Positions 2,851 through 37,301 of a stretch of 64,000 bases of DNA are shown in pieces. Both the position numbers and the translations under genes were made by a program. The DNA is from Octopus sinensis (Eukaryota), in NCBI RefSeq assembly GCF_006345805.1, contig NC_042998.1, positions 145,080,001 to 145,144,000 on the forward strand. Reading direction: 5' to 3'. The notes beneath the pieces are model-generated. The model was not told the origin of the DNA. It ran no database searches and saw nothing but the letters and a program-made list of their open reading frames with translations. Position 1 is the first letter of the stretch. Every line of letters begins with the position of its first letter.

Positions 2851-5682
2851 TTTTGATTGGTTTTAATTTAGATAGCTTAAAAACAAGAAGTTTGTATCTT
2901 AGAATCAGGGACTGTCTCAGGTGGGCTTGTATCAAAAGGGTTAAGTGGTGACTGAGTAAACCTACATTCAAATGTATATCAGTTGTGATCATCCTGTCTG
3001 AATGTCTAGGATTATATTGGCCATTGTTTTCTTGGTGTGATTTTGAGGGATTTGGGCTGCTATTTCTAGTATGTCAGGTGATTTTATAGAAGTTTTCTTA
3101 TTGAGTCTTTAATAGTTTACTGTCTACTGAACTCAGTAGAGTGAATCTTTGTAAATATCCATCTTCATTCAGATTTTGTCCCAATTAACTGATGTTCTAA
3201 TTAACCAATGGTCTAATTTAGAAAGAATGTATTCTGCTTGGATTTATTAGTCCTTAAAGTACTCTTTATGTAAACTAGCACAAGTAACTAAGATTCTGAA
3301 AACTTTATGCTTTTGTTTTATTTCTGTTGAAATAACACTGCTTTGGTTTCGATTAATTTTGAAAATAATGATTTAGTATAACTTTGTCATTATTAAGCTG
3401 GTGTTTGGAACATAAAATAAGATGAAATTTTGATAAAAATTTTAAATTCAAATCACTTTAACCCTTTTGATACCATATTTTGAATGAAGTATGCTGTCTT
3501 TGGTTGACTTCTGTGGTTGCTACTGAAGAGGAGAGAATTGCTTTTAGCTTTAAGCTTGTTGAGGAATTTATAATTACATTAAACAGTGAAGAGCATACAT
3601 ATCTTTTCATATAATTTTTTTTATTTATTTCCATGAGATAAAGTTCTTGAATTGTTGGTAGTTGTGCATAGTGCTAATTCATCCTCCTTATGGACTCTTC
3701 ACCATGACATAACTTGAGACTTGAAATTATCTTTATCTCTTAACTTTTATATGTTTCAGTCACTAGATTGCAACCTAACTGGGACACCACCTTGAAGAAT
3801 TTTAGTTAAATGAATCAGCCCCCGTACATATTTTTTTGTGCCTGGTACTTGTTCTATTGGTGTCTGTTGCCAAACTGCAAAGTTATGGGGCCGTAAATAA
3901 ACCAACACCCATTGTGAAGCAGTATTGGGGGACAAATGCAGACACAAAGCACAATTACTGAAAACGATATGATAAAGATTACATTAGAATATATTATTTA
4001 AAAATTAAAATATCATTAGTATGGTATTGAAAAACCTATTTTAAATTCTTTGAAAGAATTTCTTGTGTTTCTTTAGATTTGGTGTGATTTTCCCCATGCT
4101 ATTATTAGTGGATGATCCTACCATTTTTCAGTATAGTTCATCTGACTCTGTGTTCTGGGTTCAAATCCTGCTGAAGGCAACTTTTCATGGATGATAGAAC
4201 AAGTACCACTTAAAGGTGGAGGAATGATACAAGTGTAAGAGCATCAGACTGGATGTTTTCTGATAATTGTTTCTAGCTCTTTGTCTTCAATCCTACTCTG
4301 GTTGGTAGAATTAATCTGTTGAATAATCTGACATCACCACCTGTTGCAAGCATTTGGCTCAGGTTTTTTCAAGAATCTTTGGAAAAGGTTAAAGAGCAAC
4401 TCTGGAAATGACTCTGAAATCCAATCCTTGACTTGCATCATTGCGCGTGCATGCACACACACATACATACACGCTTGCACAAATTCATGCACACACATGT
4501 GTATGTCTGTAGGCATGGCTGTATTCATAAGAAGCTTGTTTTCCAGCTGCTTGGTTTTGGATTCTGTCCCTCTGCATGGCATCTTGGGCAGGTATCTTCT
4601 ATTATAGCTCTGAGCTGACCTAAGCCTTGTGAGTGGATTTAGTAGATGGAAACTGAAAGAAGCTCATTGTGTGTTAGTGTTCCCTTGCTGTAACATTGTG
4701 TGATAGTTTTAAATGCATCATTTGTTTCTAATCTTCTGTGAAAACCTAAGTGGTCATGTAAAATCATTACCTTAATTGGGAACAGATGAGGGTTGGTGAC
4801 AGGAAAGGATTCTCGTTGTAAAAAAAAAAAAAAGAAGAAATCTGCCACAAGAGATTCCACAAAAGATTCTGCCTGATGCATAGCAAGCATGGAAAAGGAT
4901 GCTTGAAAACAATAATGATGTGTGTGTGTGTATAGCTGTGTTGCTAAGAAGTTCACTTTTTAATCCTGTTCTTGGGTTCAGTTGCACAGAATGGTTTCTT
5001 GGGCAAGTGTTTTCTGCTATAAATGAAGGTTGGCCAGTGCATCAATCTTGTTTCCACTTCTCTCATAAGACTCTCATTAAAAATAAACTTTAAGTTTCAT
5101 GAAGTCTCCTACTCCATTTCAGTTTGTCTTGTTAGTTGGGTTATTTCTTGTTACAATGAATATTACAAACAGCTGTTTACTAATAAACTTTGAATAATTA
5201 ATCTGTTGACGAAAATTCTGTTCTCTCTAATGGATATTTTTTTTAATAAAAATCGATTTTTCACACCAAATTCTAAAGAATTCCCAGCTATTTTTTGTTT
5301 ATTTAATTAAGTATACTTTTTTGTTAGCATTTATTTTTAATGAGCTATGAACTAGAATAAAAAAAAATCTAACTCATTATTATTATCTGTTGAATATAAT
5401 TGACATATACCCAGGTAAACTGAGTCATCCATATTGATAAGATTTCTGCCCAGTAATGTTGATAGAATGTCTTGTAATTTGTATAAATGTCATTGTGGAA
5501 CCAATTCTGATAATGAAGATGGATTGACTAGTGTCAACCAAGATATGTATAGCCACACTCTCACATTATTGAATTAAAGAAATATAGATTATAAAAACAC
5601 CTGGTATCTGATTTAGCATTCATTTATTCATTTTATCTATTTATCTAGTTCTTCCTGCACATTCTCTTATCAACAGAAAACA

Positions 5683-5912
5683 TTAACCCTTTTGTTACCA
5701 ACCCGGCTAAAACTGGCTCTGGCTCTTTAGTATAAATGTCTTGCTTTCATAAGTTTTGAATTCAAATCTTCCACCAAATCTTAATTAAAATTTATATTCC
5801 TAACACTAGCTTAATGATAACAAAGTTAATTTACTAAATTCTTTGTTATAGTTAAAATAATTGAAAGAAACACAGAGCATCACAAAATAAATACAGTAAT
5901 TGAAAGGGTTAA
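5683..5912. mobile_element. piggyBac-like MITE (TTAA-CCCTTT...AAAGGG-TTAA); related partial copies near 80-250, 1091-1143, 2860-2944, 3320-3480, 30920-31140, 46085-46445, 50103-50290, 53587-53660
   Basis: TTAA duplication flanking inverted CCCTTT termini; shared internal string aactttgtcattattaagct.gtgtt.ggaacataaat in the other copies. Confidence 0.7.
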
Positions 5913-8900
5913 CTTGTTTGTGAAAGAGAAGTTGCTATTCTTGTTTAGACAAGAAATGGGCTTGGCTGAAAATAGATATGTACTGGTTGCAGTTATGAAT
6001 TGAGGTTCCTTTGACATAAAATTTGAAGTAAGGCAAATTGTGGTCATCCATACATGCAGACTTGTCCTTCACAGGTGCCAGTGCCACATGAAATGCACTC
6101 GTGTCAGTGGTGCACATGTGCTGGTGGCACGTATGAAGCACCCATACACTCTGTAAAGTGGTTGACATTAGGAAGGGCATCCAGCTGAAGAAACCATGCC
6201 ACAACAGACAACTGGGGTCTGAACAGCTCCTTCAAACCATCTAACCCATGCCAGCATGGAAAACAGATGTTGATGATGATAAATGGTACAAATATAAAAG
6301 TTAGAATTGGGAGAAAATGTTTGTCACAGTTTTAGAGGTTAACTACACTAGATTGTTGAAATGAGTTAGGAAGGTTACCTGTTGTTTATCGCATATGAAA
6401 GTTTGGTGTAACAAGTGGCAGAATTGTTGGAGTATTGGGAAAAATGCCTTGCAGTATTTCTTCTGACTGTTGACTGTTTATGTTCTGAGTTCACTTCCCT
6501 CTGTGGCTTTAATGAAACCATATGGGGCCAGCTGTTTAGACATAGATGATATGGCATAACTGACTGGACATTGAGCATGTCTTGCTGACAGTATTTAATG
6601 TGGTGCTGGAGGCAAACATATGCATGCATGCAGAAATGAGGGAGAGAGAGAGAGAGAATGAGAGAAACATTAAAACATCCTATGTGAAATAAATCTATAT
6701 TGGATCAGTGATCCCAAATGGCACCAAAATGTCTTCTCATACTCCTTGGTGGTAAATTTTGCTTTTCATCCTTTTGTAAGGGTCAATAAAATAAAGTGCC
6801 AGTCAAGTACTGGGGTTTATATATTCAACTACACCCTTCCCCCAATTTCAAGCCTTGCTTTTAGAGGTGGTGGTGAGATAAGCTTGTTTTTTAGTACACA
6901 TTTCTGTGACTTGACTATCTGCGGGTCAGCCCTGATTGAACTGGCTTCTAGTGTTCTGTTCGGTCTTTTTTTTCCAAATGTATTTAGAACTAAAATTATC
7001 CAACACATCCTTTTTGAAATGCGATAGGATATGGTTCGAAGGACATTTCTTTGTTTCTAGTATAGATGTTCTTTTCTTAGTTCATTCATTGTGATCTGAT
7101 TTTAGCTAATTGTGTAGTCTTTACATTTTCTCTTCTTTGTGGCAAAGACATACCCATTAACTTAGCTGATGACTAATTTATAATCTTTCTATGGATAATT
7201 AGTAAACTAAGTAAAATTACCATAATAATTTGGAAAAATATGATACATGTTCATCATCATTGTTTAACCATATAGCATTCAGATTGCTCTGCTAAATGCA
7301 GTGCTTTTTTATTCACAGTGTTTAGAATTAATCATGTATTGTCTCATAGCTTTGAGATTTTGATGATGTTATTGTCTGTGTTTGGAATGACATTGTAGCA
7401 TATGTGTGAGAGGCCAAATCTGGCCGATTTGAATGTAAAACAGGAAGAATATTTGAGCCAGATATGGCCTGATTAAATGCTAAAGGGTCAACATCTGCTT
7501 GGCATGCTAGCATGGGTTGGACAGTTTGGCAAGACCCTGCGAGCTGCAGGGCAATGTTGAGCACCAGTGTTAGCATAGGCATGGTTTCTGTGGCTGGATT
7601 CCCTTCTTAATGCTAACCACTTTACAGTGTGTACTGGGCACCTTTTTTGTGCCACTGGCAGAAGTGAGGTTACTGAGTGACTTGCAAAACTGAAAAAAGA
7701 ATAGGAAAAAGTGAAAAAGCCCCCTCAACTAAGTGTATGTGTGGTTATTTGAGAGGCAGGGAAGGTGGTTTCATGCTAGTTATTGAGAGGCTAAAGAACG
7801 ATACAGGGATAGACCCAGATGTCATGATTTAGAAGAGATATATAGCTACTTTGCATTATGTAATGATGGGAGTAGCTGGAAAGAAAATAAAGATGGTAGT
7901 GATGAGATGCCAGGGTATCTCAATATACAAAAAGCCGAGTATGAGAGGACAGTGGATCAGGGATGGGTAGAGAGGGGTAGTTTCATAGGATTGTAAGGGG
8001 GAAAGTAATGGACCCCCCCTTCTTTAACTCTTTAGCATTTAAACTAGCCAATTCCGGCCCAAATATTCTTCTTATTTATCTTCAAACTGGCTATATGTGG
8101 CCTCTCACACCTAACTCACTATGTCAAACAAACATATCATCAAAATCTTAAAGCTGCAAGATAATGATTAATACAAAACAATGTGAATAAAAATGCTTTA
8201 CATTAGACAATAATCTGAATGCTAAAGGGATTAGAATGCTGCTTGGTTTACCTGTACTCACTGATTTGAAGTCTATTTACAGGAGAATTTATTTATCATC
8301 ATCTTTGTTTTAACAATCTACTTCAACACACTTACATAGATTAGATGAGTGTTTTGAGGCAGGGTTTTTCTACAGTTTGATGTATTTCCTGTTGCCAACT
8401 CCTACTTGTTCCATGTTTCCAACTGAGGTAATAATCTCCTGGTCTGTTAAACCACAAACAACCCAGACATAGTTATGTGGAGAATTTGGAACCAATGACA
8501 CTGTAAGAACAAGCTTTTAGCTTACAAAGATACATTTTACGTTTTCCTTGTTTCACTCCTCTGATTGAGGCCATACTTGGACACTACCTTGAAGAATTTT
8601 AGTTGAATGAATCAACCCCAGTACTTTTTCAATTTTTAAGCCTGGTACTTAGTCTGTCTGTCTCTTGCTGAACCACTAAGTTACATGGATTTAAACACAC
8701 CAACATCGATTGTCAAGGGGTGATGGGGGGACAGATACAAATACACACACACACATAGATAAATATATATATATATATAGCACCGCAAGTCGATGACAAC
8801 ACTGCATGACTGGCACCCGTGCTGGTGGAACGTTAAAAGCACCATCCGGGTGTGATCATTGCCAGGGCCGCTGACTGGGCCCTGTGCTGGTGGCACATCA

Positions 8901-10581
8901 AAAGCACCATTCAAGCATGATCGTTACCAGCGTCACCTTACTAGCACTTGTACCGGTGGCATGTGAAAAACATTTGAGCAAGGTTGTTGCCAGTGGCGCT
9001 GGACTGGCTCCTGTGCAGGTAGCACATAAAAAACACCATTTGAGCGTGGCCATTGCCAGTACCACCTAACTGGCTCTCATGCTGGTGGCACGTAAAAGCA
9101 CCCATTACACTCTCAGAGTGGTTGGCGTTAGGAAGTGCATCCAGCTGTAGAAACTCTGCCAGATCAGATTGGAGCCTGGTGCAGCCATCTGGCTCGTCAA
9201 TCCTCAGTCAAACCATCCAACCATGCCAGCATGGAAAGCGAACGTTAAATGATGATGTATTTGACAGGCTTCCTTCAGTTTCTGTCTATCATATCCACTC
9301 ACAAGTCTTTGGTCAGCCTGAGGCTAAAGTAGAAGATACTTGCCTAAGATGTTGTGCAGTGGGACTGAATCTGGAAGGTTGGGAAACAAACTTCTTACCA
9401 CACAGCCACACTTGTGCCTAGTGTAACATTTGAAAACATATCAAGAAACTGGGACATGCTTTCACGTAGGGAAGACATTGCTTACAAGGGGAGCTTCTTT
9501 CAGTTTCCGTTTATGAAGCTTTTGTTTATGGGCTGCAGTAGCAGACACTTTATCCAAAGTGCCTTGTCATAGAACTAAACCTCAAACCATGCACTTGGGA
9601 AATGAACTTTTTAACCACTCAGCCATGCCTGTGCTTAAAATTCAATGCAAACCAATGAAAAAGAATTGATAAACATTTTTGCTACATTATAAAAACATTT
9701 GCTAATCCCTTTTTTTTTTTTTTCATTATCAAACTTTAACCAAAGTTCAGAATTAGTTTAGCAAATGAAATACTGTTTCTTAGGCAATGTTAATTTATGT
9801 AAGTTTTTATTTAAAACATTTTTAGTTTGGTTTCCAGTTTTGATTTTTGTTGTTTATATGTGAACTTGCTGTGACTGTTAGTATTTTGATATTTTCTTAA
9901 CAGCAAAACTAAAAAAAAACATTATTCTTCATGATGATGATAGTGAACATAGCTTCTTCCTTCCTCAAAATTTCTCTAAGCATTCTAATACATTTGTTGA
10001 AATCTTTTCTTTTTCCAGTTTTCTGTGAAATATTGTATTTTGTCATGTCTTATGTTTGGTCTTTATGTGATTTTCCTGTTTTGGATTTCACTTCCTGAAA
10101 TTTCTTCAACTTTTTTTTCTTTCATTCCTGTTTTCCTTCCTCTTAAAGTTTTTGCGTGTGTTTTTGGTGACATTACTAGGTTAAAACCGGAAATGATTTT
10201 TGTTAGATCACTATGAGGATTTTATATTTTAAACTGTTGATTTAAAAAAAAAAATTATTTTGTCTTCTTGGCTGTGTGGTTAATTTTGCTTCTCAAGCAC
10301 ATGATTTGTTTCAGTCTCACTGTGTGAGACCTGGGACCAATATCTTCTTCTATAGCCCTGGGTGAACCGAAGCCTTGTGAGTGGATTTGGTCAACAGAAA
10401 CTGAAGGAAACCCATTTGTGTGTGTGTGAGTGTGTGTATTACGGAGATGTACTTGCATAGCAAGTGACCTGATCTGAGATCGTGTGCTGGGATGAAAACA
10501 GTTGCAGCGTGGAAGGTGTTTATAAGCCATTTAAGAAACACACAAAAACCATTAGATTCACTTCAACATTTAAATTTAATT

Positions 10582-10693
10582 TGCCAAAATATTTTTGTCA
10601 CTTTGAGACCGTGACCTGTTCACTAACAAAATTCCGTGCTCGGAATGTTGCCAGTGAGCAGGTCGCGGTCTCAAAGCGACAAAAATATTTTGG
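10582..10693. repeat. Inverted repeat made of two hammerhead-like units
   Basis: Arms ~10584-10635 / 10642-10693; each reads GUGA(A/G)CA-G-GUCRC...GYGAC-AAAA-AUAU-UU with a closing stem I. Confidence 0.65.
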
Positions 10694-10712
10694 AGAGAGA
10701 GAGAGAGATATA

Positions 10713-11791
10713 TCAGGCTGAGTAAAAAGTAAGCAACATTTTGAAACATTTGAAATATATTTCAACAATGCAGAAATTTTATTCATCAAAGTAAGTACCA
10801 TTACAATCAACACATTTTTACCAACGAGTTACAAGTTTGTTTATTCTGGTAACAAAAATCTGGAGTTCTGATGAACTCTTTGAATGCACTTTCAGCATCG
10901 GTTTGATTTTTGAACTCCTTGCTGGAAACCATCAAGGTGCTTGAAAAAGTGGTAGTTGGTTAGAGAAAGGTCTGGGGAATAAGCTGGGTGGGGAAGAACT
11001 TCATAGCCAAGTTTCTTCAACTTCTGGAGCATCATTAATGAAATGTGTGGTTGAGCATTGTCATTGGCCCTCTTCTGTTGACCAGTCTGAGATGCAGGAG
11101 TATCAGTTTTTCATTCATTTTGGCAATTTCATGGCAATGTTTCTGCAGTAATAGTTTTTCTCAGTTTTAAGAAGTTATAGTGGAAGAGTCCAGCAGTACA
11201 CCAACAAACAATCAACATAACCTTCTTTTTGAAGAGCTCAGGTTTAAGGAAGGTTTTTGGTGCTTCATTTTGGTCTGTGCATTTTCTGATTTTCATTCAA
11301 ATTGTGTGGTACCCATTTGTCAAGGGTTTTTGATTTTCTGATTGCATGCAAATGGTTGCAGGCAGTTTTCTGGCTAATCTGAAGTTCTTTTTGCTAGTTC
11401 TTGAGTGGTTTCATGTGAATCTTTCTCAATGACAGTCTTTAATTGACCATCATCGATGACAGATGGGCTTCCACTATGCTCGCGTTTAAACCATTTTCTA
11501 GCTGACCACTCACTGGCCATTTCCTCACCAAATGTTTCATTGATATCGCGAGCAGTTTCAGCTGCTTTACATCCCTTTTTGAAGTTGAATATCATGCTTT
11601 GATAGTTCCATTTCAGATGATTGTAACAACTGTGAAAAAAAATATCAATGTTAATTTATTGATGCATTTGGGCAAGTCTATGTCTGTATTATCAGATAAT
11701 TTCAAAAAAATGTTTAAAAAAAATAAACTCAGCAAAGATCTGGTACAAATTCTCTATGGTTCAAAACATTGCTTACTTTTTACTCACCTGA
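10713..11791 (-). mobile_element. mariner (DD34D-type) DNA transposon relic with TIRs
   Basis: TIRs tcaggctgagtaaaaagtaagcaa / ttgcttactttttactcacctga. Minus strand encodes an HTH (FNFKKGCKAAETARDINETFGE...ARKWFKR) and VLPHPAYSPDLSLTNYHFFKHL (~10935-11000). Confidence 0.9.
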
Positions 11792-12116: not shown

Positions 12117-13590
12117 CAAAATAGATGAACATCAATGGAATCTGTATCTTTGTGGTACCAGTGCCGGTGGCACACAAGAGAACCATCCGAACGTGGCCGT
12201 AGCCAGTTCCGCATCGACCGGCCTCCGTGCTGTGGGCACCTAACAAACACCATCCGATCATGGCCGTTCGCCAGCCTCATCTGGCACCTGTGTCGGTGGC
12301 ACATAAAAACACCTTCCGAAGACCCGGCAAGACTAGTCAGTCCACCTGTGCATACCTTCCTTCTTGTGACACTTGTGAAGACCTGTTGAGGCAAGTGAAA
12401 ATCAAATTAAATCAAAATAGATAAACATCAATGGAATTTGTATCTTTGTGGTACCAGTGCCTGTGGCACACAAGAAATCCATCCGAACGTGGCCGTAGTC
12501 AGTACCGCATCGACTGGCCATCGTGCTGTGGGCACATAACAAACACCATCCGATCGTGGCCGTTCGCCAACCTCATCTAGCACCTGTGTCGATGGCACAT
12601 AAAAACACCATCCGAAGACCCGGCAAGACTAGTCAGGCCATATCCCATGGCCCCTACCTGGGACGTAGTCAGTCCACCTGTGCATACCTTCCTCCTTGTG
12701 ATACTTGTGAAGGCCTGTTGAGGCAAGTGAAAATGAAATCAAAACAAATCAAATCAAATCAAAACAAAACAAATCAAAATAGATGAACATTAATGGAATT
12801 GTATCTTTGTGGTACCAGTGCCGGTGGCACACAAGAAAACAATCCGAACGTGGCCGTAGCCAGTACCGCACCGACTGGCCTCCGTGCTGTGGGCACGTAA
12901 CAAACACCATCCGATCGTGGCTGTTCGCCAGCCTCATCTGGCACCTGTGTCGGTGGCACATAAAAACACCATCCGAAGACCCGGCAAGACTAGTCAGGCC
13001 ATAACCTGTGGCCCCTACCTGGGACGTAGTCAGTCCACCTGTGCATACCTTGCTTCTTGTGACACTTGTGAAGACCCGTTGAGGCAAGTGAAAATCAAAA
13101 CAAATCAAAATAGATGAACATCAATGGAGTTTGTATCTTTGTGGTACCAGTGCCGGTGGCACGTGGCACACAGAAAACCATCCGAACGTGGCCGTAGCCA
13201 GTACCGCATCGACTGGCCTCCATGCTGTGGGCACGTAACAAACACCATCCGATCGTGGCCGTTTGCCAGCCTCATCTGGCACCTGTGTCGGTGGCACATA
13301 AAAACACCATCCGAGCGTGGCCGTCTGCCAGCCTCGTCTGGCACCTGTGTCGGTGGCACATAAAAAACACCATCCGAGCGTGGCCGTTTGCCAGCCTCGT
13401 CTGGCACCTGTGTCGGTGGCACATAAAATCACCCACTACACTCTCGGAGTGGTTGGCGTTAGGAAGGGCATCCAGCTGTAGAAACACTGCCAGATCTGAC
13501 TGGACTGGTGCAGCTTTCGGGCTCCCCAGACCCCAGTTGAACCGTCCAACCCATGCTAGCATGGAAAGCGGACATTAAATGATGATGATA
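12117..13590 (+). repeat. Tandemly expanded 3' end of an RTE LINE (about 4 units of ~300-360 bp) ending in (GAT)n
   Basis: aaaatagat.aacat.aatgga recurs at ~12118, 12414, 12776, 13107; sequence matches the ORF end/3'UTR at 57293-57924. Confidence 0.88.
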
Positions 13591-34982: not shown

Positions 34983-37301
34983 TCATCATCATTTAGCGTC
35001 CGTTTTCCATGCTAGCATGGGTTGGACGGTTTAACTGGAGTCTGGGGAGCCCGAAGGCTGCACCAGGCCAGTCAGATCTGGCAGTGTTTCTACAGCTGGA
35101 TGCCCTTCCTAACGCCAACCACTCCGAGAGTGTAGTGGGTGATTTTATGTGCCACCGACACAGGTGCCAGACGAGGCTGGCGAACGGCGACGCTCGGATG
35201 GTGTTTTTATGTGCCACCGACACAGGTGCCAGACGAGGCTGGCAGACGGCCACGCTCGGATGGTGTTTTTATGTGCCACCGACACAGGTGCCAGATGAGG
35301 CTGGCGGACGGCCACGATCGGATGGTGTTTGTTACGTCCCCAAAGCACGGAGGCCAGTCTATGCGGTACTGGCTACGGCCACGTTCGGATAATTTTCTTG
35401 TGTGCCACCGGCACTGGTACCACAAAGATACAAATTCCATTGATGTTCATCTATTTTGATTTGTTTTGATTTGATTTAATTTTCACTTGCCTCAACAGGT
35501 CTTCACAAGTGTCACAAGAAGGAAGGTATGCACAGGTGGACTGACTACGTCCCAGGTAGGGGCCACGGGTTATGGCCTGACTAGTCTTGCCGGGTCTTCG
35601 GATGGTGTTTTTATGTGCCACCGACACAGGTGCCAGATGAGGCTGGCGAATGGCCACGATCGGATGGTGTTTGTTGCGTGCCCACAGCACGGAGGCCAGT
35701 CGATGCGGTACTGGCTACGGCCACGTTCGGATGGTTTTCTTGTGTGCCACCGGCACTGGTACCACAAAGATACAAATTCCATTGATGTTCATCTATTTTG
35801 ATTTGATTTGATTTGATTTTCACTTGCCTCAACAGGTCTTCACAGGTCTTCACAAGTGTCACAAGAAGGAAGGAAGGTATGCACAGGTGGACTGACTACG
35901 TCCCAAGTAGGGGCCACGGGTTATGGCCTGACTAGTCTTGCCGGGTCTTCGGTTGGTGTTTTTATGTGCCACCGACACAGGTGCCAGATGAGGCTGGCGG
36001 ACGGCCACGATCGGATGGTGTTTGTTATGTGCCCACATCACAGAGGCCAGTCGATGCGGTACTGGCTACGGCCACGTTCGGATGGTGTTTCTTGTGTGCC
36101 ACCGGTACTGGTACCACAAAGATACAAATTCCATTGATGTTCATCTATTTTGATTTGGTTTGATTTGATTTGATTTGATTTGATTTTCACTTGCCTCAAC
36201 AGGTCTACACAAGTGTCACACACTTGCCTCAACAGGTCTTCACAAGTGTCATAAGTAGGAAGGTATGCACAGGTGGACTGACTACGTCGCCGGGTCTTCG
36301 GATGGTGTTTTTTGTGCCACCGACACAGGTGCCAGATGAGGCTGGCGAACGGCCACGATCGGATGGTTTTCTTGTGTGCCACCGGTACTGGAACCACAAA
36401 GATACAAATTCCATTGATGTTCATCTATTTTGATTTGGTTTGATTTTCACTTGCCTCAACAGCTCTTCACAAGTGTCACACGTGTCACACACTTGCCTCA
36501 ACAGGTCTCCACAAGTGTCACACACTTGCCTCTGCCTCAACAGGTCTTCACAAAGTGTCACACACTTGCCTCTGCCTCAACAGGTCTTCACAAGTGTCAC
36601 ACACTTGCCTCAACAGGTCTTCACAAGTGTCATAAGAAGGAAGGTATGCACAGGTGGACTGACTACGTCGCCGGGTCTTCGGATGGTGTTTTTATGTGCC
36701 ACCGACACAGGTGCCAGATGAGGCTGGCGAACGGCCACGATCGGATGGTTTTCTTGTGTGCCACCGGTACTGGAACCACAAAGATACAAATTTCATTGAT
36801 GTTCATCTATTTTGATTTGGTTTGATTTTCACTTGCCTCAACAGGTCTTCACAAGTGTCACACGTGTCACACACTTGCCTCAACAGGTCTCCACAAGTGT
36901 CACACACTTGCCTCTGCCTCAACAGGTCTTCACAAGTGTCACACACTTGCCTCTGCCTCAACAGGTCTTCACAAGTGTCACACACTTGCCTCAACAGGTC
37001 TTCACAAGTGTCATAAGAGGGAAGGTATGCACAGGTGGACTGACTACGTCGCCGGGTCTTCGGATGGTGTTTTTTGTGCCACCGACACAGGTGCCAGATG
37101 AGGCTGGCGAACGGCCACAATCAGATGGTGTTTGTTGTGCCCACAGCACGGAGGCCAGTCGATGCGGTACTGGCTACGGCCACGTTCGGATGGTTTTCTT
37201 GTGTGCCACCGGTACTGGAACCACAAAGATACAAATTCCATTGATGTTCATCTATTTTGATTTGGTTTGATTTTCACTTGCCTCAACAGGTCTTCACAAG
37301 G
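34980..37301 (-). repeat. Tandemly expanded RTE 3' end (about 6 units), reverse orientation
   Basis: cattgatgttcatctattttg recurs at ~35438, 35780, 36132, 36412, 36794, 37238; (CAT)n tail at 34980; reverse complement of the 12117-13590 array. Confidence 0.9.

What the first reader, a model, noticed from the sequence alone, without database searches (positions are those of the whole stretch)
10582..10693. Hammerhead-like pair with swapped G3-C8 core pair and an extra G after A9
Seen: (+) CCA-GUGAGCA-G-GUCGC-ggucucaaa-GCGAC-AAAA-AUAU-UU-UGG, and (-) UUUGUUA-GUGAACA-G-GUCAC...GUGAC-AAAA-AUAU-UU-UGGCAAA. Established: C3-G8 is a Watson-Crick pair in the active fold and compensatory swaps retain activity. 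Inference: a natural G3-C8 variant family that standard CUGANGA searches would miss. G12 is A in both copies, consistent with CpG decay.
Basis: partly seen in the sequence, partly recalled or inferred. Interest (0 to 1): 0.75.

Follow-up and report, generated by a model that had tools for sequence, protein, structure and literature searches.

The report
Swapped-core hammerhead in Penelope retrotransposon
This hairpin is two decayed, head-to-head stubs of an abundant Penelope-type jumping gene whose family carries a hammerhead-ribozyme motif with its central base pair reversed (G-C instead of the C-G of sister families); the intact family version likely still cuts RNA slowly, but cutting is untested, and both copies here have lost the catalytic G and are predicted to be inactive.

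Summary
The motifs are present, but they are the two arms of one inverted repeat, not independent copies. The repeat (10438-10693) is a head-to-head pair of pseudo-LTR stubs of a Penelope-like retrotransposon (RT plus C-terminal GIY-YIG). A full-length parent lies in the same genome, and the window's minus arm encodes its first 31 codons. The family has about 8,000 motif copies. It reads G12 (97 of 110 arms; losses fit CpG decay) and G3-C8 (92 of 110). An older subfamily also has G3-C8, with a compensatory stem I pair. Two sister families have C3-G8 at the same place and the same extra G, so the swap is real between families and the extra G is an ordinary Penelope feature. Both window arms carry G12A and are predicted dead. 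Against function: no excess of copies ends at the cleavage site, many short copies start upstream of an uncut motif, and the main sister subfamily tolerates A9C. In print I found G3-C8 only as a lab rescue mutant; one key paper (Lunse et al.) was unavailable. This scan has reported the same kind of motif before on other DNA, in this and other genomes.

The parts
10438..10693 (.). Whole insertion: two 5'-truncated pseudo-LTR stubs of a Penelope-like retrotransposon joined head to head (fold-back centre about 10641)
   Evidence: Alignment of 25 loci; 91% over 203 nt to full-length copy L164 and 87% to L161
10438..10640 (-). Left arm in element sense: 5' leader, hammerhead motif, 5' UTR, start of ORF, tail end
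10580..10630 (-). Minimal type I hammerhead motif, minus arm: G3 10623, C8 10618, extra G 10616, stem II 10615-10597, G12A at 10596, palindromic stem III 10593-10588, U17 10587; predicted dead
10648..10693 (+). Minimal type I hammerhead motif, plus arm: G3 10654, C8 10659, extra G 10661, stem II 10662-10680, G12A at 10681, palindromic stem III 10684-10689, U17 10690; stem I cut to 3 bp; predicted dead
10438..10530 (-). First 31 codons of the element's RT-endonuclease ORF (starts MAYKHLPRCNC, ATG at 10530)
   Evidence: Same start as the ORF of full-length copies L161 and L164
10438..10498 (-). Optional 3' tail (about 60 nt between the family's two preferred 3' ends), ending in an ATT/TAAT target-like junction
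   Evidence: Of 27 family arms in 30 loci: 14 tail end, 11 short end, 2 other; junctions
10694..10712 (+). (AG)n run and TA at the point where the right arm stops; an unrelated, mariner-like repeat appears to follow (resemblance recalled, not tested)

Best explanation
The hairpin is a fold-back insertion of two short end-pieces of a Penelope-like retrotransposon, and each piece carries the family's minimal type I hammerhead motif with a fixed G3-C8 core pair; the intact family motif is likely a slow, dimer- or protein-assisted self-cleaving RNA kept by selection, while both window copies have lost G12 and are predicted to be inactive. Mechanism of origin (inferred from copy structure and PMC11167929): a transcript that likely starts about 22 nt before position 3 runs through the motif into the ORF; the element's GIY-YIG endonuclease would nick AT-rich DNA; RT would start at one of two sites within the first 31 codons, giving a short end and a tail end; two such cDNAs joined head to head give the palindrome. 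Mechanism of the ribozyme (inferred): stems I and II form in the monomer; the 6-nt palindromic stem III would pair between two motifs; G3 pairs with C8 in the active fold; G12 acts as base; the cut would fall after U17, 5' of the ORF.
For: Parent: L161 is motif - ORF - motif, with RT motifs, a Cx3CxxC linker and GIY-YIG; the window matches it and L164 at 87-91%. Core in 110 arms not selected on G12: G3-C8 92, U4 107, G5 109, A6 110, A9 108, G12 97, U16.1 107 (dedupe by context only, some arms are paralogous duplicates). Stems I and II are the predicted fold in a 207-nt transcript piece (pair probabilities 0.7-1.0). Older subfamily, median 28% from its own majority including flanks: G3 in 27 of 36, C8 in 31 of 36, both in 23, C3-G8 in 0 of 36 with positions 3 and 8 left free (by eye). 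Between old and young subfamilies N7 and loop II changed, the sixth stem I pair changed G-C to U-A, and stem III went from a 4-nt to a 6-nt palindrome. Sister families B (55% protein identity) and C have C3-G8 (32-33 of 33; 28-29 of 30) with the same extra G. On 11 chosen representatives the 3-8 pair is GC 6 / CG 5 and never broken. In a complete double-mutant scan the C3G+G8C swap was the only strong rescue in this region (PMC9901934, passages), and it partly rescues a Penelope hammerhead (PMC11167929).
Against: No cleavage assay or raw RNA reads. Copies do not pile up at the predicted cut: 15 of 153 listed matches start exactly there against about 14 expected, once 14 junctions explained by stem I microhomology are set aside (by eye; on 60 of them). 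Many short copies begin upstream of an intact motif with an extra, cap-like G (18 of 25), so templates were largely uncut. The most abundant sister-B subfamily carries A9C (30 of 33 arms), so core decay does not stop amplification. An extra G after A9 was strongly detrimental in a viroid hammerhead (PMC3705267, passage). The old subfamily was found with patterns that fixed several core letters, so part of its conservation is built in. The swap is one evolutionary event; the 11 rows are not independent.
Confidence: 0.68

Rival explanations
1. The motif descends from a hammerhead but no longer cuts in this lineage. It is kept as a structural element (protein binding, promoter or UTR signal) or by inertia, and the G3-C8 swap is a relic of a time when it still cut, or an accident.
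For: Uncut, apparently capped templates dominate short insertions. No truncation peak at the cut site. A9C in the most successful sister subfamily. Hammerhead mutants did not impair insertion in vitro, and no reads ended at the cut site, in another Penelope element (PMC11167929).
Against: The only two conserved core letters that differ from the canonical core are exactly the pair whose swap rescues activity. The swap persisted from the old to the young subfamilies while N7, loop II and a stem I pair changed. Both G3 subfamilies have U17 whereas canonical family C mostly has C17 (21 of 30), which would avoid a G3-C17 mispair (inference from PMC3884650).
Confidence: 0.27
2. The palindrome is a DNA-transposon MITE or a microRNA-type hairpin, and the hammerhead reading is a coincidence.
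For: Strong hairpin; best Rfam matches are miRNA precursors at 41 and 39 bits, far below their cut-offs of 91 and 100.
Against: Arms are unequal and the centre varies between copies. The sequence flanks an RT-GIY-YIG ORF as direct repeats and includes its start codon. Homologous positions in sister families hold canonical hammerhead cores.
Confidence: 0.02
3. This window locus itself is a working pair of ribozymes.
For: Both arms keep the rest of the core.
Against: Both lack G12, the plus arm has 3 bp of stem I, and a read-through transcript would form a -77 kcal/mol hairpin that hides both motifs.
Confidence: 0.02

Closest known systems
Minimal type I hammerheads in pseudo-LTRs of metazoan Penelope-like elements (Cervera and de la Pena 2014, PMC4209133; read: main text parts 1-2 of 4, supplement parts 1-2 of 3)
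   Same: Location in both pLTRs, in the sense of the ORF; extra nucleotide between 9 and 10.1; G10.1-C11.1 pair; short palindromic stem III; many solo and opposite-strand pairs in the genome.
   Different: Core pair is G3-C8. The alignment rows of their Fig. S3 that I read start CUGA or UUGA, and the only core covariation named is U3-A8. Their consensus extra nucleotide is H (A, C or U); here it is G, as in the sister families and one of their rows.
Natural U3-A8 core variants (Perreault et al. 2011, PMC3088659, passages; Schistosoma Cercyon elements in PMC4209133)
   Same: Natural Watson-Crick replacement of the 3-8 tertiary pair.
   Different: U3-A8 needs two transitions; G3-C8 needs two transversions and puts a pyrimidine at the general-acid position.
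Engineered C3G/G8C double mutants (PAc Penelope hammerhead, PMC11167929, parts 1-2 of 4; pairwise scan, PMC9901934, passages)
   Same: Same two letters; partial or strong rescue of cleavage.
   Different: Those are laboratory mutants. Here the swap is fixed in about 8,000 genomic arms and in an older subfamily.
Neptune/Nematis-type EN+ Penelope-like elements (Craig et al. 2021, PMC8557442, passages)
   Same: RT, cysteine linker, C-terminal GIY-YIG; 5' truncation; inverted 5'-truncated copy; optional tail; microsatellite or AT-rich targets.
   Different: Clade not fixed by a tree here. The tail is about 60 nt rather than 30-40. The family is dominated by short stubs of about 200 nt.

Membership tests
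Penelope-like element (EN+, C-terminal) | Single ORF with RT and C-terminal GIY-YIG endonuclease | tested here: met
   ORFs of 722-1042 aa with DKS, GAIG, YVDD, YQI..YIGET motifs read from translations; homologues carry RVT_1 and GIY-YIG accessions in a few rows. A direct Pfam scan of two copies gave 0 families at E<=0.1.
Penelope-like element (EN+, C-terminal) | Pseudo-LTR direct repeats flanking the ORF and including its first codons | tested here: met
   L161 motif at 3066 and 7427 around ORF 3157-6368 (one frameshift); L164 similar
Penelope-like element (EN+, C-terminal) | 5' truncation, inverted truncated copy, optional tail, AT-rich target | tested here: met
Neptune clade | Cx2-5CxxC linker between RT and EN | tested here: met
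   CQSNCAVC before the GIY-YIG; Nematis shares such a linker (PMC8557442)
Neptune clade | Placement in an RT phylogeny with named references | not tested
   No named reference set fetched
Hammerhead ribozyme, minimal type I | Stems I and II around the core, G10.1-C11.1 | tested here: met
   Predicted fold of family copies; pair counts
Hammerhead ribozyme, minimal type I | Literal CUGANGA core | tested here: not met
   Family reads GUGANCA; C3-G8 in 1 of 8,076
Hammerhead ribozyme, minimal type I | Watson-Crick pair between positions 3 and 8 | tested here: met
   G-C in family A, C-G in families B and C
Hammerhead ribozyme, minimal type I | U4 G5 A6 A9, G12 A13 A14, A15.1-U16.1, H17 (family) | tested here: met
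   75 of 110 arms have the whole core intact
Hammerhead ribozyme, minimal type I | G12 in the two window arms | tested here: not met
   A at 10681 and 10596
Hammerhead ribozyme, minimal type I | Palindromic stem III allowing a dimer | tested here: inconclusive
   Palindromes AAUAUU and AAUU are present, but the lowest-energy self-dimers paired stems I and II across molecules and left stem III open
Hammerhead ribozyme, minimal type I | Site-specific self-cleavage after position 17 | not testable with these tools
   No assay; the genomic proxy (truncation peak) was negative; only contigs were available
MITE (DNA transposon) | Equal terminal inverted repeats with fixed ends and a DDE parent | tested here: not met
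   Unequal arms, variable centre, retroelement parent

The most novel reading that the evidence does not exclude
A lineage of Penelope-like elements crossed a two-transversion fitness valley in the hammerhead active site and has kept a working G3-C8 ribozyme, with a coupled change to U17, through its whole recorded history; with canonical and A9C sister families in the same genome this is a natural allelic series for testing whether Penelope hammerheads matter for transposition, and it implies that motif searches miss a whole class of genomic ribozymes.
Probability: 0.4. Interest if true: 0.68.

Novelty: new variant of a known kind. Interest (0 to 1): 0.5.

Why it matters
C3-G8 is the tertiary pair that defines the active hammerhead fold, and G8 supplies the general acid. 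U3-A8 is the natural covariation I found in print; G3-C8 I found only as a lab rescue mutant. A fixed, multi-thousand-copy natural version would extend the natural core alphabet and show that CUGANGA/CYGANGA descriptors undercount genomic hammerheads. It also bears on the open question of what Penelope hammerheads do. One genome holds canonical (family C, old B), swapped (family A) and apparently damaged (A9C, young B) cores in related elements that all amplified, so selection on cleavage can be tested directly. The window locus itself is an ordinary dead insertion.

Tried and rejected
Rfam scan: no hammerhead model matched. Pfam scan of two ORF copies: 0 families. Covariation within the family: none; C3-G8 in 1 of 8,076, a degenerate copy. 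G3-G8 as an ancestral intermediate: 8 of 110 arms, about half in one cluster of duplicated decayed copies, and 2 of the first 100; not accepted as a subfamily. Fossil evidence of cleavage: a first list suggested a peak of 5' ends at the predicted cut, but the controlled patterns showed no excess once 14 junctions explained by the 7-nt stem I microhomology were set aside; if those 14 are counted there is about a two-fold excess, so a small effect is not excluded. Spliced-leader or intron reading of the 5' boundary: the upstream sequence looks like a branch point plus acceptor (577 exact matches), but copies share no upstream exon and no GAG|GT donor was found within 1.2 kb in the young copies L161 and L165, so a capped start site is preferred; an intron is not excluded. 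Expression: no RNA holder listed; the four runs laid were contigs, showing no other letter at positions 3 or 8 at 5% or more and no start or end sites. Self-dimer folding did not recover the stem III dimer. A loose pattern for further families was at control level overall (732 vs 763) and served only as a source of leads. A repeat with UUGAGCAU matched that pattern (L324-L331) but lacks a 3-8 pair and stem I; rejected. Papers not held: Lunse et al. (PMC5785218), Przybilski and Hammann 2007 (PMC1986816), Martick and Scott 2006 (PMC4447102). bioRxiv supplements are closed; the retrozyme preprint (10.64898/2026.07.22.740005, part 1 of 5 read) may list variants there.

Full report
OBSERVATION. They are the two arms of one inverted repeat. 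Positions 10575-10700 fold as a single hairpin of -77.6 kcal/mol (z -15), while each arm alone folds no better than shuffles. Rfam gave no hammerhead match at E<=10. The stretch is a repeat: a DNA search of the window's own genome (2.7 Gb) gave 2,194 candidates, 40 scored, and a degenerate pattern for the motif gave 8,076 matches against 0 for the reversed control. The genome is likely an octopus: a protein that its source names as Octopus vulgaris (P0001) matches it at up to 98%.

WHAT THE REPEAT IS. Aligned copies extend to a fixed end at window 10438 and stop at variable points on the other arm. In the sense of the motif there are two preferred 3' ends about 60 nt apart (14 tail, 11 short, 2 other of 27 family arms in 30 loci), usually beside AT-rich or (TA)n DNA. 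[quoted passage not shown] L161 is a full-length element: motif, ORF 3157-6368 with one frameshift, 1.1 kb of microsatellite-rich spacer, motif. The window's minus strand encodes the first 31 codons of that ORF from an ATG at 10530 and matches L164 at 91% and L161 at 87% over 203 nt. Pfam gave no family for two ORF copies; 162 homologues were found, mostly unnamed. Pseudo-LTRs, 5' truncation, inverted truncated copies and an optional tail are the described anatomy of Penelope-like elements (PMC8557442, passages), and an ATT target with two RT start sites inside the ORF was shown for one such element in vitro (PMC11167929, parts 1-2 of 4). The identification as a Penelope pseudo-LTR fold-back is therefore secure; the clade (Neptune or Nematis type) rests on the linker only.

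THE MOTIF IN THE FAMILY. In 110 arms from 81 of 138 loci that were not selected on G12, the core reads G3 105, U4 107, G5 109, A6 110, C8 96, A9 108, extra G 102, U16.1 107, U17 108; G3-C8 together 92; whole core intact 75 (duplicates removed by context only). The dinucleotide at 11.1-12 is CG 83, CA 13, TG 12, GG 2, the same symmetric decay as at the other CpGs of stem II. Only 1 genome match has C3-G8. Stems I (7 bp) and II (5 bp) are the predicted fold in a 207-nt piece of a young copy; stem III is the palindrome AAUAUU. Four public runs under four organism labels showed no other letter at positions 3 or 8 at 5% or more (contigs only).

COVARIATION BETWEEN FAMILIES. Sister family B (55% protein identity; 3,218 pattern matches) has the motif at the same place with C3-G8 and the same extra G; a minority subfamily has the fully canonical core and the majority has A9C. 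Family C (most of the first 100 of 898 matches; Penelope ORF pieces beside it in L333, L117, L410, L431, L432) has C3 28, G8 29, extra G 27, C17 21 of 30. An older relative of the window's family shares its leader, UTR and ORF start. With positions 3 and 8 left free it shows G3 27, C8 31, both 23, C3-G8 0 of 36 (counted by eye; two or three rows are younger copies). Its copies lie a median 28% from their majority, against 10% for the window's subfamily, both figures inflated by flanks. From old to young, N7 and loop II changed, the sixth stem I pair went from G-C to U-A, and stem III grew from AAUU to AAUAUU. On 11 representatives that I chose, the 3-8 pair is GC 6, CG 5 and never broken, and stem II pair 10.4-11.4 also changes on both sides. 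These rows are related, so this is one swap, not many; and the old subfamily was found by patterns that fixed several core letters, which builds in part of its conservation.

LITERATURE. The extra nucleotide after A9, the G10.1-C11.1 pair and the palindromic stem III are the published marks of Penelope minimal hammerheads, which cleave weakly and as dimers; the natural core covariation named there is U3-A8 (PMC4209133, main text parts 1-2 of 4), and the rows of Fig. S3 that I read start CUGA or UUGA (supplement parts 1-2 of 3). Perreault et al. also report U3-A8 (PMC3088659, passages). C3G and G8C each abolish, and the double change partly restores, cleavage of a Penelope hammerhead, which needed its protein and was not needed for insertion in vitro (PMC11167929). 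In a complete pairwise scan this swap was the only strong rescue in the CUGA region (PMC9901934, passages). An extra G after A9 was strongly detrimental in a viroid hammerhead (PMC3705267, passage). A G3-C8 variant was less active with C17 than with G17 (PMC3884650, discussion), which suggests, by inference, why U17 suits G3. Searches for a natural G3-C8 found none; Lunse et al., the most likely place for it, was not held, so absence from print is not established.

HOW IT LIKELY WORKS. Shown: anatomy, parent element, fixed swap, canonical sisters, dead window arms. Inferred: transcription likely starts at the A just before ATGCAGC, about 22 nt upstream of position 3. Of 39 copies that stop near there, 25 keep the AG, and 18 of those 25 carry a G in front that the element does not encode (p about 5e-9 at 18% G), as a copied cap would give. 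An acceptor-like sequence lies at the same place, so splicing is not excluded. RT would start within the first 31 codons, and two cDNAs joined head to head give palindromes like this one. The motif, if active, would cut after U17 and remove a capped leader of about 60 nt, likely slowly and with help from a second motif or the protein.

EVIDENCE AGAINST ACTIVITY. Many short copies come from uncut RNA. A targeted test found no excess of 5' ends at the predicted cut: by eye 15 of 153 listed matches start there against about 14 expected from 62 starts at the six following positions, after setting aside 14 junctions explained by stem I microhomology and the indel-bearing full copies (a script on 60 of them gave 10 plus 6). 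The A9C subfamily of B amplified widely. Self-dimer folding did not favour the stem III dimer. No RNA holder was listed. I put 0.68 on a selected, weakly active family ribozyme, 0.27 on a non-cutting relic.

EARLIER NOTES OF THIS SCAN. A sequence look-up found nothing. A word look-up, made after my tests, found 56 notes, among them the same reading for other loci in this genome and in other genomes. They are unchecked AI notes, agree with my result and did not change it.

VERDICT. A real natural variant of a known ribozyme in a known kind of retroelement; this locus is a dead copy. New variant of a known kind, interest 0.5, pending a cleavage assay and a look at Lunse et al.

Noticed in passing
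L170-L209 (family B pLTRs), e.g. L177:2532-2583: The most abundant subfamily of the sister element has A9 changed to C in the hammerhead core (30 of 33 arms), while a minority subfamily is canonical; a natural core-damaged variant that still amplified.
   Followed up: partly
L161:3043-3050 and many short copies: Sharp 5' boundary at an initiator-like or splice-acceptor-like site, with an unencoded G in front in 18 of 25 copies, suggesting a reverse-transcribed cap.
   Followed up: partly
L145, L147, L150, L152, L157: A cluster of decayed, duplicated full-length copies has G3-G8 with an extra A; others in the cluster have a 3-nt core deletion.
   Followed up: partly
window 10712-11700: A mariner-like repeat with a transposase-like remnant (minus strand 11374-11655) begins where the right arm stops; resemblance recalled, not tested.
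   Followed up: no
L321, L323, L348, L360, L361, L387: Old G3-C8 copies with a shorter loop II like that of families B and C; possibly a still older subfamily near the point of the swap.
   Followed up: no
L164:7274-8482 minus strand: An ORF of a different Penelope-like family (RT and GIY-YIG-like motifs) lies just upstream of a full-length copy.
   Followed up: no
L121-L122: Five tandem units of 2.5-3.2 kb each contain the motif stub but no element ORF; a host tandem duplication that captured one insertion.
   Followed up: no
window 12399-13126 and 35448-35814: Long inverted repeat pair, 94-95% alike, 22 kb apart.
   Followed up: no
L324-L331: A common repeat matches a loose hammerhead pattern but lacks the 3-8 pair and stem I.
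   Followed up: partly
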